The notes under the pieces were generated by a model. It ran no database searches, was not told the origin of the DNA, and worked only from the letters and a program-made list of their open reading frames with translations. A stretch of DNA of 64,000 nt from Syntrophaceae bacterium UBA2192 (lineage in GTDB: Bacteria; Desulfobacterota; Syntrophia; Syntrophales; UBA2192). The first letter of the stretch is position 1. Each line of letters begins with the position of its first letter. Location: the NCBI GenBank assembly GCA_002327315.1, contig DCVI01000150.1, positions 2,114-66,113 on the forward strand, in the 5' to 3' direction. The position numbers and the translations under genes are program-made. This document shows positions 22,183 through 61,222 of this stretch, piece by piece.

Positions 22183-22389
22183 TCACGTCCCGCCGTACCC
22201 CACCGTCACCTTCCCCGCCTCGACGATGACGGGGACGGCGCGCCTGCCGCCGGAGAGCTTCAGCATCTCGGGAAGTCTCGCCGCATCCTTTTTCACGTCC
22301 ACATACTCCGCCTTGTCGCCATAGGCCGACCTGGCCTTGTCCGTGTAAGGTCAGCCGACCTTGCCGTAGATGATCAACTTGTCTGCCAT
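22183..22389 (-). CDS. glutaredoxin-like selenoprotein candidate (UPYT in place of CPYC), Sec codon at 22351-22353
   Basis: GGAGGG RBS. Translation: MADKLIIYGKVG-U-PYTDKARSAYGDKAEYVDVKKDAARLPEMLKLSGGRRAVPVIVEAGKVTVGYGGT. The UGA falls exactly where the Grx CxxC first Cys sits. The frame stays open for 55 more codons and carries the Grx VPVI motif. Confidence 0.7.
22323..22337 (-). promoter_or_regulatory. candidate SECIS hairpin
   Basis: AGGCC-AGGUC-GGCCU begins 13 nt after the UGA. The loop contains GGU. Confidence 0.35.
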
Positions 22390-22435
22390 GAGTGCACCCT
22401 CCATCATCTTTTTGCTGTTATCCCCGTGCCTCCTG

Positions 22436-23152
22436 CTAAGGCCGGACGGGTCCCGCGATCGGATCCTGGTACCCGTGATCGAAGAACGCCCCGTCCAGGG
22501 CAGGATTGATCCTGTAGTTGCTGAAAATCGTGAACTCCAGGGCAGTGCCAGCCAGGTCGAACCGCTCGAACCGTGCAGGGAGCCAGAGCCTGCTGTCGAT
22601 ATAAATGCGGTATCGTTCCGGCACCTGCCCCTTGACGTAATCCTTTGCATTGAGCCGGAAGGACAGAATCTCCCCGTCGAATTTGAAATCGGCGTTTTCC
22701 TGGGGCAGGTTCCTGGCATTATCGCGCAGGAAGCCCAGGAAGTAACGGAGGTGCAGCTGGTTTACGGCCTGTCCCGAGGGGGACTTGAACAGCGGGTTGT
22801 TGACCGAAAGACGGAACTGGACCGAAGGGAACACGGCAAGGGGCCTTGAGGTCACTTCATTCTCCCCCTCGGTGTAGAAGATCGTCACCCCCGGGTAAGG
22901 GCTTCGGAACTCGATCCGAAAGCGGTCCGGCTTCCGGAAATAGAACCTGAAGTCGTAGCGTTCGGACTCCCTGCTTGACTTGAAATAGATCCCTTCGATA
23001 TCGCAGGCGTAGGAGCGGAGCTTGCCGTATGCCTCCTCGATCCGGTTTGCCACCTCGAGGATCCGCTCCCGGTCCATACCGCCCTGGGCCCGGCAGTCCA
23101 GGGGATGCAGGGTCAGCAGGGCTATTGCAATCATAAGGATGCAGCGCTTCAT
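22436..23152 (-). CDS. LolA-like / outer-membrane lipoprotein-sorting-fold protein
   Basis: Signal peptide MKRCILMIAIALLTL. DRFRIEF...TIFYTEG resembles the LolA/DUF1571-like beta-sheet pattern. The start abuts the upstream stop. Confidence 0.55.
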   Translation of the reverse strand: MKRCILMIAIALLTLHPLDCRAQGGMDRERILEVANRIEEAYGKLRSYACDIEGIYFKSSRESERYDFRFYFRKPDRFRIEFRSPYPGVTIFYTEGENEVTSRPLAVFPSVQFRLSVNNPLFKSPSGQAVNQLHLRYFLGFLRDNARNLPQENADFKFDGEILSFRLNAKDYVKGQVPERYRIYIDSRLWLPARFERFDLAGTALEFTIFSNYRINPALDGAFFDHGYQDPIAGPVRP

Positions 23153-23153
23153 C

Positions 23154-24692
23154 TCACCTGAACACGAAGTAATGCTCGAACAGACCCGGTTCATCAAAAA
23201 GGGTCCGCCCCGACAGGGTGATGGCGTGGTGGCCCCGCTGCCTCATGCTCCCGATGGAAGGAATGCCCGTGGGGAAGAAGATAAACCGCTCGACCCTCCC
23301 GGAACCTTTGGCAATGCCCTCGGCGTCGAAGATGCTTGCGCCCCGGCCGTCCCCCCGGGGCAGGGCCTCCAGCATCTCGTAGGGGAGCAGCTCATAGGGA
23401 GTGCCTTCGGGCGGAGGTGCCAGGGCCAGGAGCCTCTGGACCTGGTGCCATCCCGAGATGATCCGTACGGCGGGGGATTGTCCCGCCGCCATCTCCGGGA
23501 GTCCCTGGGGGGCGAAGGGGTCGTTTGGGTAATAGCGCTGGATCGTCCGGAGCACCCGGTCCTTCGCCGGGATGAATACGTGATAGCAGCCGCAGTTGTT
23601 CATGAGATCGATCATGAACAGCCGTCCCCCTGGTTCGAAGGACAGGCGAAGGGTGAGGCCGTCGAGACGGCCGTGCTCGATTGAAGGCGCCCGGTCTCCC
23701 GCCCAGGCCGGGTACCAGAAGGCATAATTGATCTGGAGGACCGGTTCGCCCTTCACGCGGGCATGGGAGAGGTAATAATAGACCGCGGGCTTGTCCCCGT
23801 CGACGGTCAGTTCATCGCCCTTCCAGGTGATCCGCCCGACGCGGTCATAGGGGGCTGCCTCGTCCTGGATGATGACGGGCGCGTAGTGCACCGCGAGCTC
23901 CCTTGCCTCGCTGGCGGAGGGCCTGGGGATGTTGAGGGGGTTGTGCCTCGAGGCCGCGATCACCTCGCGGGCATCCCTGCCGGTGCCCTGCGGCGGCCTG
24001 TAGAAACGCAGCCTCCCCTCCACGGGGAGTTTTTCGTAAGGCATTTCGTACCAGGCGCGGAAGCGTTCGCGCACCCTCTCGGTGATTTTGTACTCGGGGA
24101 TCGTGACCAGGGGATAGAGCCCGGCGATCCGCAGGGCATTGGAGTACTCGTCGGGGACCTCGACACGGGGCGTGAGCTCGTCGTAAAAATCGGGCCGTAC
24201 CCGGTCGGCATCGTAAAGAGACTGCGAACAGGCCGCCACCCGCCGGGCAAGCTCTTCACGGCTCGCCGCGAGCGTCCTTGCGGCAACGTCGGGCAGGGTT
24301 GCAATTTCCCGATTCCTTGCCTCCAGGTCGAGCTCCCGCATCCACTGCACCCAATCCGTTTTCGCGGCCGGTTCTGAAAGACCTCCCGCAAGCGATGCCA
24401 CGAAACGATTCGCCCTCAGGTAGGGAAAGCCGGGGACGGGCGCATCCGCCGCGTTGTGCACCCCCCTCTCGAGGACGACGGCATCGAGTCTCTCGAAAAA
24501 CGCCCGGCACCCGTCAGGGCGCTCTGTCTCCCAGGGGACCCTCGTTGCCGAAAGGGTCCCGCAGCCGGCGAGGGAGAGGATCAGCAGGACGGAAAAAAGT
24601 GCACTCAGCGACGAGCATCCGCAGACCCTCGTGCCGAGGGGGTTACGGGGGGACGCCTTTAAATTTTTGTTCAACACCGTTGAACGTTCCAT
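23154..24692 (-). CDS. lipoprotein of unknown function (512 aa)
   Basis: Lipobox LILSLAGCGT. Long uninterrupted ORF with native codon bias. No recognised domain. Confidence 0.65.
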   Translation of the reverse strand: MERSTVLNKNLKASPRNPLGTRVCGCSSLSALFSVLLILSLAGCGTLSATRVPWETERPDGCRAFFERLDAVVLERGVHNAADAPVPGFPYLRANRFVASLAGGLSEPAAKTDWVQWMRELDLEARNREIATLPDVAARTLAASREELARRVAACSQSLYDADRVRPDFYDELTPRVEVPDEYSNALRIAGLYPLVTIPEYKITERVRERFRAWYEMPYEKLPVEGRLRFYRPPQGTGRDAREVIAASRHNPLNIPRPSASEARELAVHYAPVIIQDEAAPYDRVGRITWKGDELTVDGDKPAVYYYLSHARVKGEPVLQINYAFWYPAWAGDRAPSIEHGRLDGLTLRLSFEPGGRLFMIDLMNNCGCYHVFIPAKDRVLRTIQRYYPNDPFAPQGLPEMAAGQSPAVRIISGWHQVQRLLALAPPPEGTPYELLPYEMLEALPRGDGRGASIFDAEGIAKGSGRVERFIFFPTGIPSIGSMRQRGHHAITLSGRTLFDEPGLFEHYFVFR

Positions 24693-24748
24693 TCAACTGC
24701 AGCCCCTTTTTTCGTGAAGTTACCCGGAATGCCCCGGGGGTGCCATCA

Positions 24749-24819
24749 ATAATTGTTTAATGATATTGAACAATTATAAATTTTCTTTTCGACATCCCCG
24801 AATTGGCACGATCGTTTCA
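24749..24819 (+). promoter_or_regulatory. 9-bp inverted repeat plus a sigma-54-like -24/-12 element
   Basis: ATAATTGTT (24749-57) and AACAATTAT (24769-77) are perfect reverse complements. TGGCAC-gatcg-TTTCA at 24804-24819 has a perfect -24 box and TC instead of GC at -12. It lies 53 nt upstream of ATG 24872. Confidence 0.35.
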
Positions 24820-24871
24820 ATATCATAAGGCAAAGATCGGAAATAAACCAGTCGCAAGGAGGACATAAAAA

Positions 24872-25147
24872 ATGAAAAAGTCGCTTTCGATGCTGGCCCT
24901 GACCGCTTTGATCGTTCTCATCACCGGAACCTTCAGCTATGCCGAGTACGCTGCAGCCGGCGCCGACAACTTCCCCTACTTCCACCTTGGCGCCATCGTG
25001 ATCGGCGGGCTCACGATCCTCTCGCTCAAGCAGAAGTATGAGAAGATCTACCTGAGCGAAGCCGCCGGGTCCTTCGCCCTCTACGCGGTGATGATCGCCC
25101 TGTTCACCTCCCCGGTTTCCGAGGCGATCAAGAACCTGATCGGTTAA
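24872..25147 (+). CDS. small membrane protein (91 aa)
   Basis: AAGGAGG RBS, a signal/TM segment and two further hydrophobic helices. Confidence 0.6.
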
Positions 25148-25350
25148 GAAAGAAAATCCGGGGCTCCCCGCTCGATAAGGCGGGGAGCCTGCAATGCAGG
25201 AATCAAAATGAAACGCCTCGAACGCCACATGGAAAAAACAATCCGCAAGCTCCAGTCGCAGCCGCTTCTGCTGCTTCTCGTCGCGATCTTTTTCATGGGC
25301 GGCATGATGAAGCAGGTAAAGAAGAGCTTGCCGAGCTGGGCCGTCCAGGC

Positions 25351-26286: not shown

Positions 26287-27177
26287 TCACGACCCCTTCT
26301 TCCGGCTTGCGTACTGCTGGATGACAACGCCCGCCACGATGAGGACAAGCCCCACCACGGTGGAGGGAAAGATCTCCTCGCCGACGATGAAGTGGATGAG
26401 GAAAAGCGACAGGAATGGCGAGGCGTAGACGAGGTTGCTCACCTGTGCCGTCGTGCGGGAGAGCTGCAGGGCCTTGAGCCATGTGACGAAGGTTATCCCC
26501 ATCTCGAAGAGCCCCACCCAGATGACCCCCAGGATGCCGGCCGCCGGCGGGACGCGGATCTCCCCGAAGAGAAGAACGGCAGCGAGTGTGAAGATCGAGC
26601 CGAAGACGAAATTGAGGAAGAGCTTGACGATCTCGTCGCGCCTGTCCTTCACGTTGTAGATCCAGAAGAGGGCCCAGATGACGGAGCTTCCAAGCGCAAG
26701 CAGCGCCCCCGGGAGGTTCGTGAACCTGAAGCCCAGCACATCGCCCCGGGTGGAGATGACGAGGACGCCTAAAAAGCTGACGACGATGGCCAGCACGCTG
26801 GCCCAGCGGATGGGCTGCTTGAGAATCGCGATGGAGAGCAGCACCAGCATGATGGGCCAGGTCCAGTTCAGGGGCTGGGCCTCCTGGGCGGGCAGCAACG
26901 AGTAGGCCTTGAAGAGGATGACGTAGTAGAGAAAGGGGTTGAGAAACCCGAGGGCCGCCGAGCGTGCAAGATCGGCCCCCGTGCAGGTCCTGACGGCGGC
27001 GAGTTTCCCCTGGGCAAGAAGGATGATGAACAGGACCGCCAGGGACACGAGGGATGCCCCCAGGAGCATCTCGATGAAGCTCAGATGGGCCAAGGTGAGC
27101 TTGAAGGCGGAGGCCACGGTGGACCAGAGCAGAACGGTGGCACCGGCGTAGAGATAGGCCTTCGTCTGTCGCTCCAT
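26287..27177 (-). CDS. DMT-superfamily (EamA) transporter
   Basis: About 10 TM helices in two EamA-like halves. ATG at 27177; the track start at 27201 is TTG. Confidence 0.8.
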   Translation of the reverse strand: MERQTKAYLYAGATVLLWSTVASAFKLTLAHLSFIEMLLGASLVSLAVLFIILLAQGKLAAVRTCTGADLARSAALGFLNPFLYYVILFKAYSLLPAQEAQPLNWTWPIMLVLLSIAILKQPIRWASVLAIVVSFLGVLVISTRGDVLGFRFTNLPGALLALGSSVIWALFWIYNVKDRRDEIVKLFLNFVFGSIFTLAAVLLFGEIRVPPAAGILGVIWVGLFEMGITFVTWLKALQLSRTTAQVSNLVYASPFLSLFLIHFIVGEEIFPSTVVGLVLIVAGVVIQQYASRKKGS

Positions 27178-37717: not shown

Positions 37718-39091
37718 TCAGACTTTGATGCCGTATTTTTCGATGCGGTAGATCATGGTGGGGCGCGACATGCCCAGAAGCTTTGCCGCCTTGGCCCTGT
37801 TCCCGCCACTGCGCTCCAGGGCCTGGACAATGAGATCCCGGTCCAGCTCGTCGAGGATGAGGCCTTCCGGCGGGATCTTCCACGTCGTACTGTCCGTCTC
37901 GCCGGAAAGTGGGGCCGCTTTCGTCAGGAAGTCCAGATGGCCCTTCGTGATCTCGGGCCCCTCCTCCATCAGCATGACCCGCTCAATGGCGTTGCGAAGC
38001 TCCCGGACATTGCCCGTCCAGGGGTGCTCCATGAGAAGGCGTCCGGCATCATCCGTGACTTTCTGGAAATTCTTCCGGAATCGCTGGTTGAACTTGTCCA
38101 TGAAAAAAAGAGTGAGCGCCGCGATGTCCTCCTTGCGCTCCCTCAGGGGCGGGATGGTGATCCGGGCGACGTTGAGGCGGTAATAGAGATCCTCGCGGAA
38201 GGAGCCTTCCCGGATGCACTCTTCGAGGCTCTTGTTCGTGGCGGCGATGATCCGCACGTCGACGTGCTTCTTCTCGGAGCCGCCCACGGGGTAGAAGGCC
38301 TTTTCCTCCAGAAAGGTCAGCAGCTTGACCTGTGCCGCAGGCAGAAGCTCGCTGATCTCGTCGAGGAGCACCGTGCCCCCGTTTGCCGCCTCGAACTTCC
38401 CCTTCTTCCCCTCCTGGAGCCCGCCGGTGAAGGTGCCCTTTTCGTAGCCGAAGAGCTCGCTCTCCACGAGGTCCTTGCTGATGGCCCCGCAGTTGATGCT
38501 CACGAAGGGCTTGTCGAAGCGGTCGCTGCGATGGTGGATGAGACGCGCGATGACCTCCTTGCCCGTGCCCGTTTTCCCCTCGATGAGGACCGTCGTGTCG
38601 TAGCTTCGGGCGATGGTGTCGGCCAGCCGCAGGGCGAGCTTCATGGTCGGGCTCTGGGCGACGATGTTCTCGAGGTTGTAGTCCTTGACGAATTGTTTCC
38701 GGAGCTCTTCCACCTCCCGCTTGAGCTTGAGGGTCTCCAATGAGCGCTCGATGATGAGATCGAGTTCCTCGATGTCGAGGGGCTTCACCAGGTAGTCGAA
38801 AGCGCCCAGCTTCATGGAGCTGATGACGGACTTCACGTCCTCGTAGGCCGTCATCATGATCACCACGGCTTCCCCGTTGAGCTGCCGGATGCGGCGGAGG
38901 GTCTCGATGCCGTTGATGCCCGGCAGGCGGATGTCCAGCAGGACGAGGTCAAAATTGTGCGACGGGATCAGCCGCAGGGCCTCCTCACCGCTTCCGGCGA
39001 TCCGCGTGTCGTATTTCTCCGACAGGATCGTGTCCAGGGAGTTTTGAAGAAGCTTGTCGTCATCGACGATGAGGATCTTATACCGGTACAT
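37718..39091 (-). CDS. sigma-54-dependent response regulator (NtrC family)
   Basis: Receiver domain (ILIVDDD, LVLLDIRLP). AAA+ domain (GKTGTGKE, GTFTGG loop, canonical VLLDEISEL). Fis-type HTH (AKAAKLLGMSRPTMIYRIEKYGI). Confidence 0.9.
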   Translation of the reverse strand: MYRYKILIVDDDKLLQNSLDTILSEKYDTRIAGSGEEALRLIPSHNFDLVLLDIRLPGINGIETLRRIRQLNGEAVVIMMTAYEDVKSVISSMKLGAFDYLVKPLDIEELDLIIERSLETLKLKREVEELRKQFVKDYNLENIVAQSPTMKLALRLADTIARSYDTTVLIEGKTGTGKEVIARLIHHRSDRFDKPFVSINCGAISKDLVESELFGYEKGTFTGGLQEGKKGKFEAANGGTVLLDEISELLPAAQVKLLTFLEEKAFYPVGGSEKKHVDVRIIAATNKSLEECIREGSFREDLYYRLNVARITIPPLRERKEDIAALTLFFMDKFNQRFRKNFQKVTDDAGRLLMEHPWTGNVRELRNAIERVMLMEEGPEITKGHLDFLTKAAPLSGETDSTTWKIPPEGLILDELDRDLIVQALERSGGNRAKAAKLLGMSRPTMIYRIEKYGIKV

Positions 39092-44368: not shown

Positions 44369-44495
44369 ATCACCCTCACCTCGATCCTCTCCTGGAAAAG
44401 GAACGGGATCCTTCCCCCTCCTCCACTTCCTCCTCCCACCAGGGGAGGAGAACAGAGGAAAAGGTCTCCATAGGGAGAGGAAGATCAAGGAAGGG
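44369..44495 (+). repeat. family-B ~130-bp MITE/REP-like element
   Basis: ATCACCCTCACCTCGATCCTCTCC ... CCTCCTCCCACCAGGGGAGGAG ... CATAGGGAGAGGAAGATCAAGG. Confidence 0.7.
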
Positions 44496-45576
44496 GTTTT
44501 TTACAGGACGGGAGCGCCTTCAGGATCTTCTTCTCGAGCCTTGAGACGGCAAGGCGGGAAATACCCGTTATCCCGACCCAGCGCAATTGCACATCGCCCC
44601 CGGAATCAGGGATGGCCCCCCGGATCCTGCAGGGAAAGACGTGCACGGTAACGGAGAAGTGGGAATATCCGTGTTCGACGGAGAACATTTCCCTGCCGGG
44701 GATTGCCTTCAGGGCCAATTCCTCCCGCAGCGACCTGCGCAGGCCTGCGGAAGGTGCATCCCCTTCCTTGAGGAAGCCCCCCGGAAAACTCCAGAGACCC
44801 CCGAGAAGCCCCCTCCCCGGCCTCTTGACGAGGAGGATCTCCCCCCGGTCATTGCGAATCACCGCAACGGCGGCCTCGCGGTGAGGGACTGCGGCCGCCT
44901 TCTTTTTTGCGGGAATCGATTCCTGATTCCCTTTCTTTCGGGCCCTGCACGCCGCGGCCAGGGGGCAGGCCGGGCAGGCGGGGCTCCGGGGCGTGCAGAT
45001 GCCGGAGCCGAGATCCATGAGGGCCTGGTTGTAATGGCCGGGCTCGCTCGCCGGGACGAGCCTCTCCGCGATTGCCCCGATCCGGTTTTTTGCCGTGCTC
45101 CCGTCGACGGGGTCCTCGATCGCGAAGAGTCGGGCGATGACGCGGATCACATTGCCGTCGACGGCCGCAAAGCGCCTTCCGAAAGCGATGCTCAGGATCG
45201 CCCCGGCGGTGTAGGCGCCCACGCCGGGCAGTTTCCGAAGATCCTCCATCTCTTCGGGGATCGTCCCGCCGAATTTTTTCACGACGACGCCGGCCGCCTC
45301 ATGGAGCTGTCGGGCGCGGGAATAGTAGCCGAGGCCTTCCCAGGCCTTGAGGACGTCGTCCACGCGGGCCCGGGCGAGCGCCCTCACGTCGGGAAACCTC
45401 TTCAGGAACCGCTCATAGTAGGGGATGACCGTGTCGACCCGGGTCTGCTGGAGCAGGACCTCGGCCACCCAGGTCCTGTAAGGGTCTCTCGTCTTCCGCC
45501 AGGGAAGATCTCTTTTATTCTTCTTGTACCAGTCGAGAAGCAGGCGGGGGATTTCCGTGTCGCGGTTGCTTGGCAT
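44485..45576 (-). CDS. mutY: A/G-specific adenine DNA glycosylase MutY
   Basis: LPWR...DPYRTWVAEVLLQQT, HhH LPGVGAYTAGAI, four-Cys cluster CTPRSPACPACPLAAAC and a C-terminal Nudix-like domain. Confidence 0.9.
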   Translation of the reverse strand: MPSNRDTEIPRLLLDWYKKNKRDLPWRKTRDPYRTWVAEVLLQQTRVDTVIPYYERFLKRFPDVRALARARVDDVLKAWEGLGYYSRARQLHEAAGVVVKKFGGTIPEEMEDLRKLPGVGAYTAGAILSIAFGRRFAAVDGNVIRVIARLFAIEDPVDGSTAKNRIGAIAERLVPASEPGHYNQALMDLGSGICTPRSPACPACPLAAACRARKKGNQESIPAKKKAAAVPHREAAVAVIRNDRGEILLVKRPGRGLLGGLWSFPGGFLKEGDAPSAGLRRSLREELALKAIPGREMFSVEHGYSHFSVTVHVFPCRIRGAIPDSGGDVQLRWVGITGISRLAVSRLEKKILKALPSCKKPLP

Positions 45577-45682: not shown

Positions 45683-46639
45683 CTAGACGTGGTTGCGGAG
45701 CATCAGCTCCGAGGGGTGCGGGTTCAAATAGGTCTGCTCTTTCAGGTAGGGTTGGTTGTACTTCCGGACATAGTGGCCAAGCAGGGTGACGGGGACGATC
45801 AGAGGGATGAGCCCTCTCTTGTATTCAGTGATGATCTCCAGGAGCTCCCGCTTCTCGTCTGCACTGAGATCTTTCTTGAAGTAGCCCATGATGTGCATCA
45901 GGACATTCTCGTGCTTGGCCGCCGTGGGCTTGAGCGCCATGGCCTCCATGAGATGCCCCTCGTAGCGCTCGACAAGTTCACGGACCGGAATCTCCTTCGC
46001 ATGGGCCACGAGGCTTCCCATTTCCTTGAGGTGCCTGGGGCTGTGTGCCATGAGGAGAAGTTTGTTCTTCGCGTGGAAGTTCATCAGGCGCCTCGCCTGC
46101 TTCGTGCCCTCCATGATGTCGCAGTAACGCTTGCAGGTGAAGATGCGCTCGATGAAGTTCTCCCGAAGGACGGGGTCGTGGAGACGCCCTTCCTCTTCCA
46201 CGGGAGTGAGCGGAAAGTGCTCCATGAAGATACGGGCGAACACCCCCACGCCGACCTTCGACGGGATGCCCTTGTCGCCGTACACCTTGACGCGCTCCAT
46301 GCCGCTCGAAGGCGAATCGCTCTTGAAGACGTAGCCGCAGAGGTCTTCCTTCTCCAGCTCCTCAACGCGCTTGCGTGCCCAGGCCTCCATCCTCTCTGTG
46401 TGATCGGCACCGGTCTTGTGGATCACGAGTCGCGGCCGCTTCGGGTCGCCGATGAGACGGAAGGTGTCACGAGGGATGCCGAAACCGCACTCCACCTCGG
46501 GGCAGACGGGGACATACTCAACGTACTTGCCCAGGGTGTAGGCGAGGAACCGGTCCAAGGCGTGCCCGCCGTTCCAGCGGACATTCTGGCCGAGCAGTCA
46601 GCTGCTGATTCCGAGACGGATCTTGTCCATGTTGGTCAT
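45683..46639 (-). CDS. DUF523(TudS-like)-DUF1722(YbgA-like) fusion protein, selenoprotein candidate; Sec codon at 46598-46600
   Basis: Reading through the UGA gives MTNMDKIRLGISS-U-LLGQNVRWNGGHALDRFLAYTLGKYVEYVPVCPEVECGFGIPRD. This matches the DUF523 N-terminus (kIgiSACLLGe.vRydGgh ... vCPEv) with U at the conserved Cys. The track ORF starts only at an internal TTG (46558). Confidence 0.65.
46563..46583 (-). promoter_or_regulatory. candidate SECIS hairpin
   Basis: UGUCCGC-UGGAACG-GCGGGCA (7-bp stem including one G.U pair) begins 14 nt after the UGA. Confidence 0.35.
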
Positions 46640-52209: not shown

Positions 52210-53580
52210 TCACCGGCTTTTGCGCTCCAGGGCGGACACCTTTTTCAGGTAGGCATCCATGTCGAACTTGCGCTTGAGCCCCGCATCGTTCATGTAGCGA
52301 ATCTTTCCGAAGACCTTCCGCTCGGACCAGGCCCGGTCGTGCTTGCCGAAGCACCAGGCCACGCCGGCAAACCCGTTGGGGTCCCTTCCGTCGAGTTCGT
52401 AGCGGTTGTTGAGGGTAATGGCCGTCCGGAAGGCCTCCGCCGGGGTCCGGCTCCACTCGAGGATCTTCTTCCCCCAGTACATGCGCATGTAATTGTGCAT
52501 CTTGCCGGTGATCATCATCTCCCGCTGGGCGGCGTTCCAGTAAGGGTCATGGGTCCCGGCGCGCTCCCACTGTTCAGGGCCATAGATAACTTCGCGGCGG
52601 TCCTTTGCGTGCTCGGCGAGGGTCTTTCTCGCCCAGTCCGGCAGGCACTCGTACTCGTCGTAGCGGTCGTTGTAAAAAACGAAGTTCATGCCGAGCTCGC
52701 GCCGCACGATGAGCTCTTCCAGGAAGGACTCCCTTGCCGCGGCGGGGACCGATCTCTCACCGGATATGCGAAGGGCGACGGCGAGCGGTGAGATCTGCCC
52801 AAAGTGCAGGTAGGGGCTCAGATGGGAGGAGTAGTCGAGGCCCGGGTCGTTCCGAAGCTTGTCGTAGTGGCGGATCTTCTTTGCGATGAATCCCTCCAGC
52901 AGGGCGTTGGCCCGGGCCGTACCGCCCCGGAAGGCCATCACGGGCGAAACGCTGCGGTCGATTTTCATTTTCTTGAGCAAAGACGTGAGCTCCCCTTCCG
53001 AGTCCACGTCGAGGCGAAGGGAGAGAGAGTCCTTCCTGACCGTTTTTTCCTTCAGCGGGACGAGGTATCCCTCGAGGATTCGCTGGAGCTTGGGCCTCAG
53101 GGTCCCCGCGGTGTATTCCTCCTTCGGCGAGGCCGTCTCCACGGGGACGACAGTCTCGGACTCCACCTGCACGACGGAGCAGGGGGCGTTTTTTGCGACG
53201 TGGTTTCTCCACTGCCGCTGGATGCGCAGATAGCCCCGGTCGGCGACGACAAGGGCCGCCTCCTCGGCCATCGCCGTTGCGGCCAGCTCGGGCGAGCGGT
53301 GAACGAGCACGAAACGGATGCCCCGGCTGTTCAGCCTCTTTCGGACCTCCTCGAGCCCTTCCACCATGAAGGCGTAGTGGCGCAGGTTGGCCTCGGGGAA
53401 CTGCCCGGTGAGGCCGAAGACGACAACGACGGGAAGGTTGCGCTCGTTTGCCTCTCCCACGGCGTATTCGAGGGCATGGTTGCACTCGACCCTCTGGGAG
53501 GCCTGCATCCAGTAAAGGATGTAGCGGCCGTCCTGGATGCTTCGGCTGTTGAGCGGCTGGATACGCGAGGCATGGATCAT
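52210..53580 (-). CDS. phr: class II CPD deoxyribodipyrimidine photolyase
   Basis: YILYWMQASQRVECNHAL N-terminus and C-terminal GKMHNYMRMYWGKKILEW. Confidence 0.9.
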   Translation of the reverse strand: MIHASRIQPLNSRSIQDGRYILYWMQASQRVECNHALEYAVGEANERNLPVVVVFGLTGQFPEANLRHYAFMVEGLEEVRKRLNSRGIRFVLVHRSPELAATAMAEEAALVVADRGYLRIQRQWRNHVAKNAPCSVVQVESETVVPVETASPKEEYTAGTLRPKLQRILEGYLVPLKEKTVRKDSLSLRLDVDSEGELTSLLKKMKIDRSVSPVMAFRGGTARANALLEGFIAKKIRHYDKLRNDPGLDYSSHLSPYLHFGQISPLAVALRISGERSVPAAARESFLEELIVRRELGMNFVFYNDRYDEYECLPDWARKTLAEHAKDRREVIYGPEQWERAGTHDPYWNAAQREMMITGKMHNYMRMYWGKKILEWSRTPAEAFRTAITLNNRYELDGRDPNGFAGVAWCFGKHDRAWSERKVFGKIRYMNDAGLKRKFDMDAYLKKVSALERKSR

Positions 53581-58248: not shown

Positions 58249-59871
58249 TCAGCCGACAATCTTCCTGACCTTCTCGACCAGTTCCGCGACGGTGAAGCAC
58301 TCGCCGTTGTATTTAAGGATCCGATGATTCACCTTCAAACCCAGTTCGCGCCTGAGCAACTGCGCGAACTGGCCTGTCGCATTGTTCTCGATGCATATCA
58401 AGCGCTTGCGGGAAAGCCCTCTCGCCATTTTCGGCGCCAGGGGGTAGACCTGGCCGAAATGCAGGGCCGCCACTGCGATCCTTTCGGCCTGGAGGGCCTC
58501 GACAGCCTCCTGGACAATGAGGTGGTTCGATCCCCACGAGATGAGAACCGTAGCGGCCTTTCGATCCCCGAAGCGGGAGGGCATGACGGCTTCCTGTTTG
58601 ATTCCTTCCATCTTCCGGAGCCGCTTTTCGACCATCCGGACCCTCAGATCGAGATCTTCCGTGATTTTCCCATCCTCGGTGTGCTCGTCGGAGTCGACCT
58701 CGACGCGTGCCTCCGAAAGGCCGGGGTAAGTCAGGGGCGAGACCCCGTCGGCCGTGATCGCATAGCGTTTGTATCCGGCCTCGAAGACGGGGTACTCCCG
58801 GCGAAGCATTTTTGTCGGGACCCGTCCATCCATGACCTGGACGGAGTCGGCGAGGTACTGGTCCGTCAGGATGAAGACGGGAACCTGCCATCGGTCGGCC
58901 AGATCAAAGCCCTTCCGCGCCAGTGCGATGGCCCCCTCGATGGATCCCGGGGCGAAGATCACCCTGGAAAACTCGCCGTGGCCCGCGTGAAGGACGAAAT
59001 TCAGGTCGGCCTGCTCGGTCCTGGTCGGAAGCCCCGTTGCCGGTCCCGGCCGCTGGGCGTCGATGATGACGATCGGCGTCTCCGTCATGCCGGCAAGCGA
59101 GACGGCCTCCGTCATGAGGGCAAATCCCCCGCCCGAGGTGGCCACCATGGAACGCAGCCCTGCGTACGAGGCGCCCAGGGCCATGTTCAGGGCCGCGATC
59201 TCGTCTTCGGCCTGCTCGAAATGCACGGGAATCTCCGCCGCAACGGTTGCGAAGTAATGCAGGATCGACGTGGCGGGCGTCATGGGGTAGCCGGCCATGA
59301 ACTGACAGCCGCCGAGAAGCGCCCCCAGGGCGAGGGCCTGGTTCCCGTCGAGTTTGCAGTGATCGCCCGCCTTCGGGGCTATGACCATGCGGCCCGCAAG
59401 CTCCCAGCGGGCGGCAAAATCCCGGCCCTTCGCCAGGGCGCTGCGAGCCGGTTCATCGGCGGCCGACTTCGTTTCTGCGGGGTCCGCACCGATGAACGCG
59501 AGGATGAGGCCGACGAGGATGGTGCTTGTGGCCGAAACATCCTGGAAAGAACCCTTTGCCTCCGCCTCGATCTGCCCCACCCGGTCGGCGCCGATGAAGA
59601 CGCCGCCCGTCCCCAAAGAGGGGCGGTGCCTTCGCTCCGTCTCGCCGTCGTCCATGGCGACGATCAAGTCCCAGGGTCTGCCGCTCAATGCATGAACGGG
59701 CTTGTCAGCCACACGGATCATGTGGAAGTTGTGGCCGCCCCGTATGCGCGACATGTAGTTCTTCGTGGCGAAGAAATGGTAGCCCATCTCGGAGAGAAGC
59801 TCCGAGAGCTCCATCTCGACGGAAAACATCCCCTGCCCGGCTTCCCCACCGATCAGTACATTGAATTCCAT
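58249..59871 (-). CDS. korA: 2-oxoacid:ferredoxin oxidoreductase alpha subunit with a fused N-terminal gamma domain
   Basis: Gamma-type N-terminus LIGGEAGQGM...RGGHN, then alpha GNQALALGALLGGCQFMAGYPMTP. Confidence 0.9.
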   Translation of the reverse strand: MEFNVLIGGEAGQGMFSVEMELSELLSEMGYHFFATKNYMSRIRGGHNFHMIRVADKPVHALSGRPWDLIVAMDDGETERRHRPSLGTGGVFIGADRVGQIEAEAKGSFQDVSATSTILVGLILAFIGADPAETKSAADEPARSALAKGRDFAARWELAGRMVIAPKAGDHCKLDGNQALALGALLGGCQFMAGYPMTPATSILHYFATVAAEIPVHFEQAEDEIAALNMALGASYAGLRSMVATSGGGFALMTEAVSLAGMTETPIVIIDAQRPGPATGLPTRTEQADLNFVLHAGHGEFSRVIFAPGSIEGAIALARKGFDLADRWQVPVFILTDQYLADSVQVMDGRVPTKMLRREYPVFEAGYKRYAITADGVSPLTYPGLSEARVEVDSDEHTEDGKITEDLDLRVRMVEKRLRKMEGIKQEAVMPSRFGDRKAATVLISWGSNHLIVQEAVEALQAERIAVAALHFGQVYPLAPKMARGLSRKRLICIENNATGQFAQLLRRELGLKVNHRILKYNGECFTVAELVEKVRKIVG

Positions 59872-59974
59872 GGTTTCCTCCCGCGGTCTTTCATGAACCT
59901 GCGATCGGTAATGTGTGCTGGGGTTTGCCGCCCCCGGAATGGGTCATTTACCGGTGGCGACGGGAACTCAGTCC

Positions 59975-60217
59975 TCAGGAAAGGCCCTCGCGCTCCATCT
60001 CGGCGATGAGGTCCAGGTAGGTCTTTGCAAGCAGGTCCTCGAGGATCTGGCTTTTCTTCCACGAAGGAAACCAGTCGATCTCGGATGCGTTGTCCGCCTC
60101 GATTTGTTCCCTGCTCTGCCAGAATTTTTCCTGGATGGCCGAGGCCTTCTCCTGGCCGAATCTTTCCTGGTACTGCATCAAGGCGTGGAGGAATCTTTCT
60201 CGAGTAGAGCCTTCCAT
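59975..60217 (-). CDS. hypothetical protein (80 aa)
   Basis: Acidic, helical ORF downstream of the selenoprotein pair. No motif recognised. Confidence 0.45.
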   Translation of the reverse strand: MEGSTRERFLHALMQYQERFGQEKASAIQEKFWQSREQIEADNASEIDWFPSWKKSQILEDLLAKTYLDLIAEMEREGLS

Positions 60218-60310
60218 GGGATGCCTGCCTGCAAGAAGAAGTTACGAAAGTGGAAAGAGGCACAGGGACGGAGGCCGTCTTTCGGCCCCCGCCCCGGCGA
60301 GTTGTGCGAA

Positions 60311-60619
60311 TTACTGCAGAATCTTCGGCGGCCCGGAGAGCGGAAACCCCGCCTTTTCGAGGGCATCGACGATCTTTTCGATACTGGTTACTTCGTCATC
60401 GAAGTGGATGATCGCCATGTGGGTGAACTCATTGACATCCGACTTTCCGGCCTTTGCAACGTTTGTGAGGGTCCAACTGACCCTGTCCCGGGTGAAGGGT
60501 CACTCGCAGTTCGGCAGCATGACCTGGATGATCCGCTCCTTGGCCATGGCGGTTGAGGCGCCGATCAGGATGACAAGCACAACCGTGAACAGCACCAGGA
60601 GAATCGATCTTGATCTCAT
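60311..60619 (-). CDS. exported HMA-like ferredoxin-fold selenoprotein candidate (C-E-U motif); Sec codon at 60500-60502; absent from the ORF track
   Basis: AAGGAGG RBS. MRSRSILLVLFTVVLVILIGASTAMA signal peptide. KERIIQVMLPNCE-U-PFTRDRVSWTLTNVAKAGKSDVNEFTHMAIIHFDDEVTSIEKIVDALEKAGFPLSG follows the HMA layout (metal-binding loop, ...V.fD....s.e.i..ai..aGf). Confidence 0.6.
60468..60484 (-). promoter_or_regulatory. candidate SECIS hairpin
   Basis: AGGGUC-AGUUG-GACCCU (6-bp stem) begins 15 nt after the UGA. Confidence 0.4.
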
Positions 60620-60682
60620 GGATGAACCTCCTTTTCAATTTGCATTATTTTAATCACTCCGGCGGCCAAAATCCACTCAAAT

Positions 60683-61222
60683 CTATTTGCCTCCGTTGAG
60701 GTCTTTCAGCACCCTGAGGATCTCTTCATAGTCGGGCGACCCGTCCCGCACGTAGCGGATGGTTGCCTTTTTGTCGATAATGACGGTTCGCCGCTCAAAG
60801 GGGAACCTACCCTCCTTCACGACTCCAAAGGAGCTTCCCAGGTAACCGGAGATGTTCGACAGCAGGGGAAAGGACAGTCTTAAATGTTTTTTCCAGTATT
60901 GGAGGGTCTGCACGTCGTCACGGCTGACGCCCACGACCTGGGCGTTGAGGGACCTGTAGGCTTCCAGGTTCGCCTGGTGTCCCTGCATCTCGCCCGTTCA
61001 GGTGGGGGTGTAGGCTGCCGGGAAGAATGTGACGATCAGGAAGGCCTTGTCGTAGTATTCCGGTCCGTAGTTGATCGCCCGGTCCTCCGTTGAGGAGAGG
61101 GTGAAATTGACGGTCTGCTTGCCGATCAGGGGATCCTGCTGACCGGCTGCCCGGATCGTCAGAGGGATCATCAGCAGCGCGACCAGAAGGAGAAGCCCAA
61201 CGGTAAATCGCCGAGTCATCAT
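60683..61222 (-). CDS. exported PrxQ/Bcp-type peroxiredoxin, selenoprotein candidate; Sec codon at 60998-61000
   Basis: AAGGAGG RBS. Signal peptide MMTRRFTVGLLLLVALLMIPLTIRA. FLIVTFFPAAYTPT-U-TGEMQGHQANLE matches F-[YF]-P-x3-T-P-x-C-T-x-E, with U at the peroxidatic Cys. Both track ORFs are in the same frame across the UGA. Confidence 0.75.
60964..60977 (-). promoter_or_regulatory. weak candidate SECIS hairpin
   Basis: CCAGG-CGAA-CCUGG lies 20 nt after the UGA. A wider AGGGAC...GUCCCU pairing is also possible. Confidence 0.25.

What the first reader, a model, noticed from the sequence alone, without database searches (positions are those of the whole stretch)
22183..61222. Four UGA-at-cysteine genes in 64 kb imply a very selenoprotein-rich organism, and ORF-based annotation will systematically break them
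The four candidates are Grx-like (22351), DUF523/TudS-like (46598), HMA-like (60500) and PrxQ (60998). In all four the UGA aligns with a conserved redox or metal Cys and coding continues in frame. A stem-loop also lies 13-20 nt downstream. Four independent Cys-to-stop pseudogenisations at exactly these residues seem unlikely. No sel genes are in this window.
Basis: inference. Interest (0 to 1): 0.55.

Follow-up and report, generated by a model that had tools for sequence, protein, structure and literature searches.

The report
Four selenoprotein genes, five Sec codons
Four genes in this piece of an uncultured Syntrophales bacterium use the stop codon UGA to insert selenocysteine at catalytic or metal-binding cysteine positions, five times in all. 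This is normal for this selenium-using lineage, but two of the genes are forms missing from current selenoprotein catalogues.

Summary
All four in-frame TGAs lie at the stated coordinates on the minus strand and align with a functional Cys in homologues. Coding continues in frame after each. A whole-window scan finds no fifth gene of this kind. Orthologues from independent assemblies keep every TGA under purifying selection (dN/dS 0.08-0.20). Downstream hairpins co-vary or track the Sec state. TGA is also the commonest true stop here (35 of 59 model genes), so decay, sequencing error and codon reassignment are all rejected.

The Grx-like gene's "stop" at 22183 is followed by GAC GTA TAG, the U-x-x-stop tail of NCBIfam "UXX-star selenoprotein family 1". 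Its SECIS lies in the 3' UTR.

The Prx is the known TxxU type. The DUF523 gene is a RudS-type tRNA 4-thiouridine desulfidase with Sec at the first [4Fe-4S] ligand. That is a different position and architecture from the only published DUF523 selenoprotein. The HMA gene belongs to an exported MerP-like C-x-U family with no curated model.

No sel genes or tRNA-Sec are in the window. "Very selenoprotein-rich" fits the lineage but remains an extrapolation. Public gene callers do break or mistranslate these genes.

The parts
22174..22389 (-). Glutaredoxin-like double selenoprotein gene, 71 codons plus TAG stop. It is a member of UXX-star selenoprotein family 1.
   Evidence: Scores 103.2 bits on NF041114 (cut-off 72) and 1.4e-6 on Pfam Glutaredoxin. 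Translation. A GGAGGG Shine-Dalgarno sequence lies 8 nt upstream of the ATG. dN/dS is 0.12-0.20 against five orthologues.
22351..22353 (-). Sec codon 1 of the Grx-like gene (U13), in the motif U-P-Y-T at the CxxC-equivalent active site.
   Evidence: The same column is TGA in 48 and TGC/TGT in 24 distinct related sequences.
22323..22337 (-). SECIS candidate for Sec 1: AGGCC-AGGUC-GGCCU. It starts 13 nt after the UGA, and the loop starts 18 nt after.
   Evidence: The core GGCCAGGUCGGCCU is invariant in all 7 close orthologues, L093-L099. Its energy is -7.4 kcal/mol, just short of the -7.5 threshold of the bSECIS model. Its rank in the window is unremarkable, top 13.5%.
22183..22185 (-). Sec codon 2 of the Grx-like gene (U69). 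The tail is GGT-U-D-V-stop, the 'UXX-star' form.
   Evidence: Every full-length member among the 80 metagenome loci ends G-G-[TS]-U-x-x-stop. The NCBIfam family definition agrees. Table 1 of the review lists this family with 2 Sec.
22153..22171 (-). SECIS for Sec 2, located in the 3' UTR: GCCCUGCA-GUC-UGCAGGGC. It starts 11 nt after the UGA, which is 2 nt after the TAG stop.
   Evidence: Energy is -13.8 kcal/mol, in the top 1% of all TGA triplets in the window. 69 of 74 distinct orthologous sequences have a perfect hairpin of at least 6 bp starting 9-16 nt after the UGA. All 69 have G in the first two loop positions, and they carry 47 different 5' arms. No U-run follows the hairpin, so it is not a typical terminator.
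45683..46639 (-). RudS-type gene, a TudS/DUF523 desulfidase domain fused to DUF1722, 318 codons. The start may instead be the ATG at 46630.
   Evidence: Pfam 2-thiour_desulf 2.7e-40 and DUF1722 2.7e-48. Aligns to TudS structure 6z92. The RudS architecture and function are from PMC11417400. dN/dS is 0.11-0.18 against six TGA-bearing orthologues.
46598..46600 (-). Sec codon of the RudS-like gene (U14, GISSULLG). It is the position of the first [4Fe-4S] ligand, TudS Cys10 or RudS_KT Cys17.
   Evidence: Alignment. The column is Cys in 99 of 99 full-length homologues. TGA is confirmed in L009-L011 and in 6 of 78 species-representative genomes, all Syntrophales-type MAGs.
46563..46583 (-). SECIS candidate of the RudS-like gene: UGUCCGCUG-GAA-CGGCGGGCA. 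It starts 14 nt after the UGA.
   Evidence: Energy is -12.8 kcal/mol, top 1% in the window. The core is kept in all 10 TGA-bearing sequences, with one U.G to U-A change in L016 and L021. It is also present in the nearest Cys forms (L012, L017, L018), so it is permissive rather than diagnostic.
60311..60619 (-). Exported MerP/HMA-like selenoprotein gene, 102 codons plus TAA. It has a signal peptide ending AMA|KE.
   Evidence: Sequence matches to MerP structure 1osd (2.8e-5) and to TIGR02052 MerP (34.5 bits, below cut-off). The AlphaFold model of the 87%-identical orthologue has pLDDT 87 and a beta-alpha-beta-beta-alpha-beta fold. Its best PDB match is MerP 1osd, with TM 0.87 and rmsd 1.5 A. An AAGGAGG Shine-Dalgarno sequence lies upstream.
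60500..60502 (-). Sec codon of the HMA-like gene (U40), in the motif C-E-U-P-F-T. It sits at the first Cys position of MerP's GMTCxxC, at the N-terminus of helix 1.
   Evidence: Alignment. TGA is confirmed in DNA of five relatives in four lineages with GC 38-56%: L007, L008, L092, L173/174 and L175. Other family members have Cys there.
60468..60484 (-). SECIS of the HMA-like gene: AGGGUC-AGUUG-GACCCU. It starts 15 nt after the UGA.
   Evidence: The hairpin is in the same register in all four lineages. 92.9% of cells are paired, against 21-43% when the 3' arm is slid. 4 of 7 pairs show changes on both sides, and 0 of 500 shuffles reach the covariation score. The 38 nt after the UGA carry one change among three orthologues, although 52 of 102 codons differ overall between the window and L008.
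60683..61222 (-). Exported AhpC/TSA-family peroxiredoxin selenoprotein gene, 179 codons plus TAG. It has a signal peptide and no Cys anywhere in the protein.
   Evidence: Pfam AhpC-TSA 2.4e-22. The PxxxTxxU motif matches the known Prx selenoprotein family in Table 1 of PMC13188914. dN/dS is 0.08-0.14. The Prx and HMA genes are adjacent in L007, L008 and L178.
60998..61000 (-). Sec codon of the Prx (U75), at the peroxidatic Cys position.
   Evidence: PAAYTPT-U-TGE aligns to PADFTPV-C-TTE of solved peroxiredoxins. TGA is kept in L007 and L008.
60940..60995 (-). Stem-loop region downstream of the Prx UGA. The inner hairpin CCAGG-CGAA-CCUGG lies at 60964-60977, 20 nt after the UGA, inside a longer imperfect helix.
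   Evidence: The whole 63-nt UGA-containing segment folds at -26.9 kcal/mol. The inner hairpin alone is -6.3 kcal/mol and fails a strict version of the bSECIS model. A hairpin is kept at this place in L008 only by a register shift, and the outer helix keeps pairing through a C-to-U (G.U) change. The exact SECIS is therefore not resolved.

Best explanation
The window comes from an uncultured Syntrophales-type bacterium (Thermodesulfobacteriota). It carries four selenoprotein genes with five UGA codons decoded as selenocysteine.

Mechanism (established knowledge of bacterial Sec decoding; inferred here): each UGA is followed 11-20 nt later by an mRNA hairpin, the bacterial SECIS. SelB-GTP carrying Sec-tRNA(Sec) binds the hairpin and delivers Sec to the ribosome before release factor 2 can act. 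For the C-terminal Sec of the Grx-like protein, the hairpin lies just past the real stop codon, in the 3' UTR.

The proteins:
1. A glutaredoxin-fold 'UXX-star family 1' protein. One Sec sits in the active-site motif UPYT and a second sits three residues from the C-terminus. The tail Sec probably acts as the partner of the active-site Sec, by forming a diselenide or by binding a metal (inferred).
2. A RudS-type tRNA 4-thiouridine desulfidase. Sec replaces the first of the three cysteine ligands of the catalytic [4Fe-4S] cluster. The canonical third ligand is Ser, and Cys51 is the likely substitute (inferred).
3. An exported MerP-like HMA-fold protein with a C-x-U site in the metal-binding loop. 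It most likely binds a soft metal or metalloid in the periplasm (inferred).
4. An exported peroxiredoxin with Sec as the peroxidatic residue and no resolving Cys. It must therefore be recycled by an external thiol or selenol, possibly the neighbouring C-x-U protein (speculative).
For: Shown here:
- Exact sites, and reading frames that continue past each TGA.
- Only these four loci pass a whole-window scan.
- Each U aligns with a functional Cys.
- TGA is conserved in orthologues at 75-91% identity from JGI, ENA, Logan and NCBI assemblies, with dN/dS 0.08-0.20 over the full frames.
- C-terminal UXX-star SECIS: 69 of 74 distinct sequences carry a perfect hairpin at a fixed distance, with 47 different 5' arms and G in the first two loop positions in all 69. 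Only 7.6% of the window's TGA triplets meet the same criteria.
- Grx N-terminal site: 42 of 48 Sec forms have a stem of at least 6 bp, mostly at a fixed spacing of 12 nt. Only 7 of 24 Cys forms do, at scattered positions.
- HMA SECIS: compensatory changes in 4 of 7 pairs across four lineages, and suppressed synonymous change after the UGA.
- Three of the five hairpins pass a strict form of the published bSECIS model, which only 7.1% of TGA triplets pass (model constraints from PMC13188914).
- TGA terminates 35 of 59 model genes.
- NCBIfam equivalog hit above cut-off for the Grx-like gene.
- The HMA fold is confirmed by a confident model matching MerP.
- Lineage: the nearest genomes are Syntrophaceae/Syntrophales MAGs, in a phylum described as most enriched in selenoproteins.
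Against: - No selA, selB, selD or tRNA-Sec lies in the window or in 8.5 kb beyond it, so the machinery is inferred, not seen.
- No experimental data exist. Sec cannot be told from Cys or another amino acid inserted at UGA.
- The Prx and Grx-N hairpins are no better than about 13% of random TGA contexts in this 58% GC sequence. They narrowly fail a strict energy threshold.
- The RudS hairpin is also present in the nearest Cys-form genes, so it does not by itself mark Sec.
- Only three Prx sequences with TGA were examined.
- The roles proposed for the Sec residues (cluster ligand, metal ligand, diselenide) rest on alignment and fold, not on tests.
Confidence: 0.9

Rival explanations
1. The TGAs are inactivating Cys-to-stop mutations, and the four genes are decaying pseudogenes.
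For: TGC/TGT to TGA is a single-base change. The nearest RudS homologue with Cys is 91% identical. Gene callers report the genes as fragments.
Against: - The same TGA is kept in many diverged orthologues.
- Sequence on both sides of the TGA is under purifying selection, with dN/dS 0.08-0.20.
- There are no further stops or frameshifts.
- The short N-terminal peptides upstream of the TGA are conserved, for example M[ED]KIRLGIS[ST].
- RNA hairpins after the TGA co-vary.
Confidence: 0.02
2. UGA is reassigned in this organism to Trp (code 4) or Gly (code 25), as some public gene calls imply by printing W at these sites.
For: JGI and ENA protein predictions for orthologues show W at the site.
Against: - TGA is the most frequent terminator of well-scoring genes here, in 35 of 59.
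- In-frame TGAs occur only at Cys-aligned positions, never at conserved Trp or Gly columns.
- The window is 58% GC. From background knowledge, it is unlike the known code-4 and code-25 lineages.
- The W calls occur only on short contigs, where the caller fell back to code 4. The tool reports 'translates to query: no' under table 11 for them.
Confidence: 0.01
3. Sequencing or assembly errors created the in-frame stops.
For: The window derives from a metagenome assembly.
Against: Identical TGAs appear in contigs from at least seven independent samples and four assembly pipelines for the Prx/HMA locus. They also appear in separate MAGs and metagenomes for the other genes.
Confidence: 0.01
4. UGA is read through, but with Cys or another standard amino acid rather than Sec. 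Alternatively, the genes are expressed as two separate polypeptides by termination and re-initiation.
For: Nothing here measures selenium. From background knowledge, Cys insertion at Sec-UGA is known under selenium limitation in some systems. Start codons exist downstream of some TGAs; callers used TTG, CTG and ATG.
Against: - The position-specific hairpins fit the SelB-dependent model.
- The TGA splits the active-site motif itself (UPYT, TxxU, GISxU), so separate halves would lack the catalytic residue.
- For the UXX-star tail, only three codons follow the UGA, which cannot be a separate product.
Confidence: 0.05

Closest known systems
UXX-star selenoprotein family 1 (NCBIfam NF041114), listed as 'Distant Grx-like protein 1' in Table 1 of PMC13188914 with motif UxxT and 2 Sec
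   Same: The HMM score is above the equivalog cut-off. The protein has a Grx fold, the active-site motif U-P-Y-T, the C-terminal G-G-T-U-x-x-stop tail, and two Sec residues.
   Different: Nothing material. The window copy uses a different short hairpin (AGGCC-AGGUC-GGCCU) for the first UGA than most family members, which use GCCGCC...GGCGGC.
Peroxiredoxin selenoproteins (PF00578, motif PxxxTxxU). The family is listed as experimentally verified in PMC13188914.
   Same: AhpC/TSA domain, with Sec at the peroxidatic position in PxxxTxxU.
   Different: The protein is exported (it has a signal peptide), has no Cys at all, and is paired with an exported HMA-fold selenoprotein. It scores only 30 bits on the PrxU model NF040737, whose cut-off is 270. 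The subfamily (BCP/PrxQ versus Prx6-like) is not resolved.
RudS, the TudS-DUF1722 tRNA 4-thiouridine desulfidase (PMC11417400), and the DUF523 selenoprotein of Desulfosarcina sp. BuS5 (deep-Sep, PMC12013277)
   Same: It has the same two-domain architecture as RudS. The catalytic Glu (CPE), Arg and Ser-x-Ser and the R-[WY]-N-G tRNA-contact motif are conserved. Like the BuS5 protein, it is a DUF523 protein with Sec at a cluster-ligand position.
   Different: - The BuS5 protein is a 148-aa stand-alone TudS with Sec at the third ligand (SPSUG) and Cys at the first (VSACLLG).
- Here Sec is at the first ligand (ISSULLG) and the third ligand is Ser (SPSSG).
- The deep-Sep paper found no TGA-containing homologue in other organisms. 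This form occurs in the window plus at least 6 species-level MAGs and several metagenome contigs.
MerP and other HMA-fold metal-binding proteins. Selenoprotein relatives are NF041115 'UxxU metal-binding (seleno)protein', NF045683 MerT/CopZ fusion selenoprotein, and 'Mercuric transport protein MerP' in the GOS selenoproteome table (PMC2398784).
   Same: Signal peptide plus a beta-alpha-beta-beta-alpha-beta HMA fold. The reactive residue sits at the start of helix 1, where MerP has its first Cys. HMA-fold selenoproteins are already on record.
   Different: - The motif is C-x-U-x-x-T, not C-x-x-C or U-x-x-U. MerP's second Cys position is Thr.
- All curated models score far below cut-off: MerP 34.5 vs 92.55, NF041115 14.5 vs 95.
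- No mer genes are nearby.
- The gene is paired with a Sec-peroxiredoxin in the window's clade.
Bacterial SECIS consensus (the bSECISearch model as summarised in PMC13188914). The E. coli fdhF SECIS comparison is from memory.
   Same: The hairpins lie immediately 3' of the UGA. The apical loop is 3-5 nt with G in the first or second position, followed by G or U in three of the five. The distance from UGA to loop is 18-25 nt.
   Different: The Prx and Grx-N upper stems are only 5 bp and fall just short of the -7.5 kcal/mol threshold when taken alone. The UXX-star C-terminal element sits beyond the stop codon rather than within coding sequence.

Membership tests
Bacterial selenoprotein gene (general definition) | In-frame UGA at a position where homologues have Cys, with coding continuing in frame | tested here: met
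   Met at all four reader sites. The fifth, C-terminal site is U in every family member seen, so no Cys pairing was observed there.
Bacterial selenoprotein gene (general definition) | SECIS hairpin after the UGA that fits the bSECIS model: loop 3-9 nt, G in the first two loop positions, 16-37 nt from UGA to loop, energy at or below -7.5 kcal/mol | tested here: inconclusive
   The geometry is met by all five. The strict energy test on the upper stem alone is met by three: GrxC -13.8, RudS -12.8 and HMA -8.5. It is narrowly missed by GrxN (-7.4) and Prx (-6.3). The background pass rate is 7.1%.
Bacterial selenoprotein gene (general definition) | TGA and hairpin conserved or co-varying in orthologues, with the frame under purifying selection | tested here: met
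   The evidence is weakest for Prx, with three sequences and a register shift.
Bacterial selenoprotein gene (general definition) | Genome encodes selA, selB, selC (tRNA-Sec) and selD | not testable with these tools
   None is present in the window or in 8.5 kb beyond it. The rest of the genome could not be retrieved.
Bacterial selenoprotein gene (general definition) | Selenium actually incorporated at the site | not testable with these tools
   This needs 75Se labelling or mass spectrometry.
[quoted passage not shown] | Equivalog HMM score above the curated cut-off | tested here: met
   103.2 bits against a cut-off of 72, even without the last three residues.
[quoted passage not shown] | C-terminal Sec followed by exactly two residues and a stop | tested here: met
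   TGA GAC GTA TAG at 22185-22174. The same layout is seen in all full-length relatives.
[quoted passage not shown] | N-terminal UxxT (or CxxT) motif in a Grx fold | tested here: met
   The motif is G-U-P-Y-T, and Pfam Glutaredoxin scores 1.4e-6. The fold itself was not modelled.
Peroxiredoxin selenoprotein (PF00578, TxxU) | AhpC/TSA domain above the gathering score | tested here: met
   79.6 bits against 26.
Peroxiredoxin selenoprotein (PF00578, TxxU) | PxxxTxxU with U at the peroxidatic Cys | tested here: met
   P-A-A-Y-T-P-T-U aligns to P-A-D-F-T-P-V-C of solved Prx structures. The motif is as cited in PMC13188914.
RudS (TudS-DUF1722 tRNA s4U desulfidase) | TudS/DUF523 domain fused to DUF1722 | tested here: met
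   PF04463 2.7e-40 and PF08349 2.7e-48.
RudS (TudS-DUF1722 tRNA s4U desulfidase) | Three conserved Cys holding the [4Fe-4S] cluster (RudS_KT Cys17, Cys49, Cys114; TudS Cys10, Cys43, Cys104) | tested here: not met
   The first is Sec (U14), the second is Cys46, and the third is Ser112 (SPSSG). The same Ser occurs in 118 of 120 close homologues, and Cys51 is conserved in 98 of 100 as a possible substitute. The protein is filed as RudS-like, not as a proven RudS.
RudS (TudS-DUF1722 tRNA s4U desulfidase) | Catalytic Glu, Arg and two Ser (RudS_KT Glu51, Arg60, Ser111, Ser113) | tested here: met
   CPE48, R57, S109 and S111 line up in the TudS alignment. The residue roles are from PMC11417400.
RudS (TudS-DUF1722 tRNA s4U desulfidase) | tRNA 4-thiouridine desulfidase activity | not testable with these tools
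   This needs an enzyme assay.
DUF523 selenoprotein as published (deep-Sep; motif SxSUG) | Sec at the SPSxG (third-ligand) position of a stand-alone DUF523 protein | tested here: not met
   The published sequence has VSACLLG ... SPSUG and is 148 aa. The window protein has ISSULLG ... SPSSG and is 318 aa with a DUF1722 domain.
HMA domain / MerP | Sequence model above the curated cut-off (PF00403; TIGR02052 MerP) | tested here: not met
   PF00403 scores 16.6 against 24.8. TIGR02052 scores 34.5 against 92.55. Precomputed PF00403 hits exist for some relatives.
HMA domain / MerP | beta-alpha-beta-beta-alpha-beta ferredoxin-like fold with the metal site at the loop before helix 1 | tested here: met
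   The model of orthologue P0001 has pLDDT 87, with elements E28-34, H41-53, E59-63, E68-74 and H80-89. Its best PDB match is MerP 1osd, TM 0.87 and rmsd 1.5 A.
HMA domain / MerP | GMTCxxC metal-binding motif with two Cys | tested here: not met
   The motif is N-C-E-U-P-F-T. U sits at the first Cys, Thr sits at the second, and an extra Cys lies two residues upstream.
HMA domain / MerP | mer operon context (merR, merT, merA) | tested here: not met
   The neighbours are a Sec-Prx, a polyferredoxin-like protein, an 80-aa unknown protein and 2-oxoacid:ferredoxin oxidoreductase subunits.
NF041115 UxxU metal-binding (seleno)protein and NF045648 MbdU | HMM score above cut-off | tested here: not met
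   NF041115 scores 14.5 against 95. No MbdU hit was found for any of 22 family members.

The most novel reading that the evidence does not exclude
Two of the four genes may represent selenoprotein subfamilies that are not yet catalogued.

(a) A RudS-type tRNA 4-thiouridine desulfidase in which selenocysteine, not cysteine, is the first ligand of the catalytic [4Fe-4S] cluster, and the canonical third ligand has moved. This form is present in the window and in at least six Syntrophales species. It interleaves with Cys forms at about 90% identity.

(b) A widespread family of small exported MerP-fold proteins with a C-x-U (or C-x-x-U) site. Its SECIS hairpin is in the same register across bacteria with 38-56% GC. 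In the window's clade it is paired with an exported, Cys-free Sec-peroxiredoxin, which suggests a two-selenoprotein periplasmic system.
Probability: 0.55. Interest if true: 0.45.

Novelty: new member of a known kind. Interest (0 to 1): 0.36.

Why it matters
- Annotation: these genes are currently split, truncated or mistranslated with Trp in public protein sets, including an NCBI-named record. Catalogues of redox and metal-handling proteins in Syntrophales are therefore systematically incomplete.
- RudS form: it supplies the TGA-bearing homologues that the only published DUF523 selenoprotein lacked. It also puts Sec at a different cluster ligand. That makes it a natural test case for what a Se-Fe bond does to a non-redox [4Fe-4S] enzyme that is known to be oxygen-labile.
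- MerP-like C-x-U family: it has clean cross-lineage SECIS covariation and could be turned into a curated model. Its pairing with a Cys-free Sec-peroxiredoxin suggests a testable periplasmic peroxide or metal system.
- None of this changes how Sec decoding is understood.

Tried and rejected
- Rfam at gathering thresholds found no SECIS family in the window, only a c-di-GMP-I riboswitch. As far as I know, Rfam has no bacterial SECIS model, so this says nothing either way.
- Hairpin strength alone was tested as a discriminator. It was rejected for Prx and Grx-N, which rank only in the top 13.5%.
- The extra scan hit at 26287 was rejected. It is the TGA stop of an EamA transporter gene followed two codons later by the ATG of a QueG/RDH-like Fe-S protein gene.
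- The hit at 38741(+) is the antisense shadow of a sigma-54 activator gene. The hit at 58249 is an ordinary stop.
- All 35 TGA-terminated model genes were checked for further U-x-x-stop style tails. None was convincing.
- The exported Cys-Grx at 18351-18824 scores above cut-off on the Uxx_star subfamily model. It has a CPWC site and no GGT-U tail, so it is not a selenoprotein.
- Searching genome contigs with broad HMA alignments failed because no block was conserved enough. The single genome scan was therefore spent on the RudS-like protein.
The 87%-identical orthologue P0001 was used instead.
- The Haft & Tolstoy 2025 paper that defines several UXX-star families is not in the held library. 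Its content is known here only through NCBIfam names and the 2026 review.
- The idea that Prx and the HMA protein are always paired was rejected. The pairing is seen only in the window's clade. A Cys-form relative instead sits near ArsD/ArsA genes.

Full report
**1. The observation**

All four candidates lie on the minus strand at the coordinates given.
- Grx-like gene: 22389 down to the TGA at 22183. U13 is at 22351-22353 in the motif ...YGKVG-U-PYT...
- DUF523+DUF1722 gene: 46639-45683. U14 is at 46598-46600 in the motif ...RLGISS-U-LLGQNVRWNGGH...
- HMA-like gene: 60619-60311. U40 is at 60500-60502 in the motif ...LPNCE-U-PFT...
- Peroxiredoxin: 61222-60683. U75 is at 60998-61000 in the motif ...FFPAAYTPT-U-TGE...

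The window is 58.5% GC with a strong GC3 signal. I trained a codon log-odds score on long ORFs. I then scanned every TGA in all six frames for coding potential on both sides.
- With strict or relaxed thresholds, the same four sites come out.
- The only additional hits are two adjacent same-frame genes (26287), an antisense shadow (38741) and an ordinary stop (58249).

**2. Each U sits on a functional Cys**
- The Prx U aligns with the peroxidatic Cys of solved peroxiredoxins: PAAYTPT-U-TGE against PADFTPV-C-TTE.
- The DUF523 U aligns with Cys10 of TudS, PDB 6z92. That residue is one of the three [4Fe-4S] ligands according to PMC11417400.
- The same DUF523 column is Cys in 99 of 99 full-length homologues. 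It is TGC or TGT in 72 of 78 species-representative genomes.
- The HMA U aligns with the first Cys of MerP's CxxC. Family members carry Cys there.
- The Grx U is replaced by Cys (CPYT) in 24 of 72 distinct related sequences.

**3.

NCBIfam places the Grx-like protein in NF041114, 'UXX-star selenoprotein family 1', at 103 bits against a cut-off of 72.

The supposed terminal TGA at 22183-22185 is followed by GAC GTA TAG, which gives U-D-V-stop. In 80 related metagenome loci, every full-length member ends G-G-[TS]-U-x-x-stop. The 2026 review lists this family with two Sec residues and the motif UxxT. The gene therefore ends at 22174 and holds two Sec codons.

**4. Not pseudogenes, not errors, not a reassigned codon**

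The Prx-HMA pair is found with both TGAs in contigs 87% and 75% identical at the HMA protein level.

The RudS-like TGA is present in:
- three further contigs, including a Syntrophales MAG in NCBI;
- six of the closest GTDB species representatives, where it interleaves with Cys forms.

Nei-Gojobori dN/dS over the whole frames, against TGA-bearing orthologues, is as follows.

| Gene | dN/dS |
|---|---|
| RudS-like | 0.11-0.18 |
| Prx | 0.08-0.14 |
| Grx-like | 0.12-0.20 |
| HMA-like | 0.20 at the informative distance |

The locus appears in at least seven independent samples from JGI, Logan and ENA.

TGA terminates 35 of 59 well-scoring model genes, so it is a working stop codon. The 'W' printed at these sites in some JGI and ENA proteins is a code-4 artefact. 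In all five cases I checked, the DNA has TGA.

**5. SECIS evidence**

The five hairpins in the window are shown below.

| Site | Spacer after UGA (nt) | Hairpin | Energy (kcal/mol) |
|---|---|---|---|
| Grx-N | 13 | AGGCC-AGGUC-GGCCU | -7.4 |
| Grx-C | 11 | GCCCUGCA-GUC-UGCAGGGC | -13.8 |
| RudS | 14 | UGUCCGCUG-GAA-CGGCGGGCA | -12.8 |
| HMA | 15 | AGGGUC-AGUUG-GACCCU | -8.5 |
| Prx | 20 | CCAGG-CGAA-CCUGG, inside a longer helix | -6.3 |

All five have G in the first or second loop position and lie 18-25 nt from UGA to loop. This matches the published bacterial SECIS geometry (PMC13188914).

Three pass a strict energy version of that model, which 7.1% of the window's 1,979 TGA triplets pass. 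The Prx and Grx-N hairpins are unremarkable on their own, ranking in the top 13.5%.

The comparative data are much stronger.
- **UXX-star C-terminal UGA.** 69 of 74 distinct sequences carry a perfect hairpin of at least 6 bp starting 9-16 nt after the UGA, just past the real stop. All 69 have G early in the loop, and they carry 47 different 5' arms.
- **Grx N-terminal site.** 42 of 48 Sec forms have a stem of at least 6 bp, mostly at a fixed spacing of 12 nt. Only 7 of 24 Cys forms do, at scattered positions.
- **HMA family.** Four lineages with 38-56% GC place the hairpin in exactly the same register. 92.9% of cells are paired, 4 of 7 pairs show compensatory changes, and no shuffle reaches the covariation score. 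The 38 nt after the UGA are almost invariant, while half of all codons differ elsewhere in the gene.
- **RudS.** The hairpin is kept in all TGA forms but also in the nearest Cys forms. It reads as a pre-existing structure, encoded by V-R-W-N-G-G-H, that permitted Cys/Sec switching. It is not a marker of Sec.

**6. What the proteins are**

(a) **Grx-like.** It is a known curated family.

(b) **Prx.** It is the known PxxxTxxU type. This copy has a signal peptide and no Cys at all, so it needs an external reductant.

(c) **DUF523 gene.** It has the TudS+DUF1722 architecture of RudS, the tRNA 4-thiouridine desulfidase.
- The catalytic Glu, Arg and Ser-x-Ser are conserved.
- The canonical third cluster Cys is Ser (SPSSG), here and in 118 of 120 close homologues.
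- Cys51 in CPEVEC is nearly invariant.
- The only published DUF523 selenoprotein (Desulfosarcina sp. BuS5, deep-Sep 2025) is a 148-aa stand-alone TudS. It has Sec at the third ligand (SPSUG), and no TGA homologue was reported elsewhere.
- The form here is thus a different Sec position in a different architecture. No paper in the held library links RudS with selenocysteine in this way.
- An NCBI-named record for an orthologue is truncated at the TGA.

(d) **HMA-like gene.** It belongs to a family of about 100-aa proteins with signal peptides.
- An exhaustive HMMER search recovered 28 representatives at E of 0.001 or better. Many are split fragments or 'W' forms.
- The site is C-x-[U/C] or C-x-x-[U/C].
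- The AlphaFold model of the 87%-identical orthologue is confident (pLDDT 87). Its best PDB match is MerP, with TM 0.87.
- No curated NCBIfam selenoprotein model reaches cut-off for any of 22 members.
- A 'Mercuric transport protein MerP' selenoprotein entry, with two sequences, already appears in the 2008 GOS study. An HMA-fold periplasmic selenoprotein is therefore not new in kind.
- A Cys-form relative sits near ArsD/ArsA genes. This favours a metal or metalloid role over a purely redox one.

**7. The organism and the 'selenoprotein-rich' claim**

The window is part of ENA contig k141_20108, which is 114.7 kb. The closest genomes for the RudS-like gene are Syntrophaceae/Syntrophales MAGs, at up to 91.5% DNA identity. 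The lineage is Thermodesulfobacteriota, Syntrophia. The 2026 review names this phylum among the most selenoprotein-enriched, with record genomes holding 57-63 selenoprotein genes.

No tRNA, SelA, SelB or SelD is in the window. The next 8.5 kb holds no further candidate.

As an inference, consider three independent loci in 64 kb.
- With about 40 selenoprotein genes in a 4-Mb genome, a Poisson model gives roughly 3% for three or more loci in 64 kb.
- With about 5 genes, it gives below 0.01%.

The density does favour a large selenoproteome. It is still an extrapolation, and it may be biased by how the window was chosen.

**8. Verdict**

One correction is needed: five Sec codons, not four. One caveat remains: genome-wide richness and the sel genes are untested. 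The finding is an ordinary feature of this lineage. It contains two Sec forms that appear to be uncatalogued, which gives modest interest.

Noticed in passing
window 2534-2624 (-), with ORF 408-2564 (-): A c-di-GMP-I riboswitch (74 bits, gathering score 35) lies directly upstream of a 718-aa secreted-type protein with SBBP beta-propeller repeats. The longest-ORF start overlaps the riboswitch, so the real start is probably further downstream.
   Followed up: no
window ~2900-12150: A low-GC island with poor codon scores carries defence-type genes. These are a Dam-class methyltransferase plus a DpnII-like endonuclease, a TIR/SEFIR protein, a DUF6035/CoiA-like nuclease, an REase-ARP nuclease and a ParA-like ATPase. 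It is probably a horizontally acquired defence island.
   Followed up: partly
window 13187-16054 (-): A 955-aa protein fuses a sigma-54-interaction AAA+ domain to an MshEN domain and a type II/IV secretion ATPase (T2SSE) domain. This is an unusual combination.
   Followed up: no
window 45683-46639 (-) and homologues P0006-P0125: In this RudS-like subfamily the canonical third [4Fe-4S] cysteine (SPSCG in TudS and RudS) is serine (SPSSG) in 118 of 120 close homologues. Cys51 in CPEVEC is conserved in 98 of 100. This suggests a relocated cluster ligand in a large group of Thermodesulfobacteriota enzymes, independent of the Sec question.
   Followed up: partly
window 44485-45576 (-) and 52210-53580 (-): A MutY-like glycosylase gene lies directly downstream of the RudS-like gene, here and in L009 and L011. 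A DNA photolyase gene lies 5.6 kb away. From background knowledge, the DUF1722-only gene ybgA of E. coli sits next to the photolyase gene phr. The association with light or UV-damage genes may be meaningful.
   Followed up: no
window 18351-18824 (+): An exported Cys-type glutaredoxin has a signal peptide, a DUF4124 domain and a CPWC active site. It scores above the cut-off of the 'Uxx_star' subfamily model NF041212 (77 vs 66 bits) although it has no GGT-U-x-x tail. That model does not separate Sec-tailed proteins from ordinary relatives.
   Followed up: yes
loci L007, L008, L092, L173-L175; proteins P0001, P0002, P0128, P0132, P0137: Public gene callers (JGI, ENA) translate Sec-TGA as Trp on short contigs, apparently by falling back to genetic code 4. 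Protein databases therefore contain full-length selenoproteins with a spurious W at the Sec position. These 'W' forms were useful here for finding Sec-containing orthologues.
   Followed up: yes
window 20219-22070 (+): An archease-RtcB (RNA ligase) gene pair converges on the Grx-like selenoprotein gene. The Grx-like gene itself is the last gene of an apparent three-gene minus-strand unit. The other two proteins (512 aa and 253 aa) have no Pfam or NCBIfam family.
   Followed up: no
locus L176 (Cys-form HMA relative P0133): The Cys-form member of the MerP-like family lies beside a sigma-54 response regulator and near ArsA and ArsD genes. This hints at a metalloid-handling role for the family.
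   Followed up: no
window 62877-63998 (-), full copy in L178 8241-9695: An IS element (DDE transposase, 484 aa in the full copy) lies immediately upstream of the polyferredoxin / Sec-Prx / Sec-HMA gene group.
   Followed up: no
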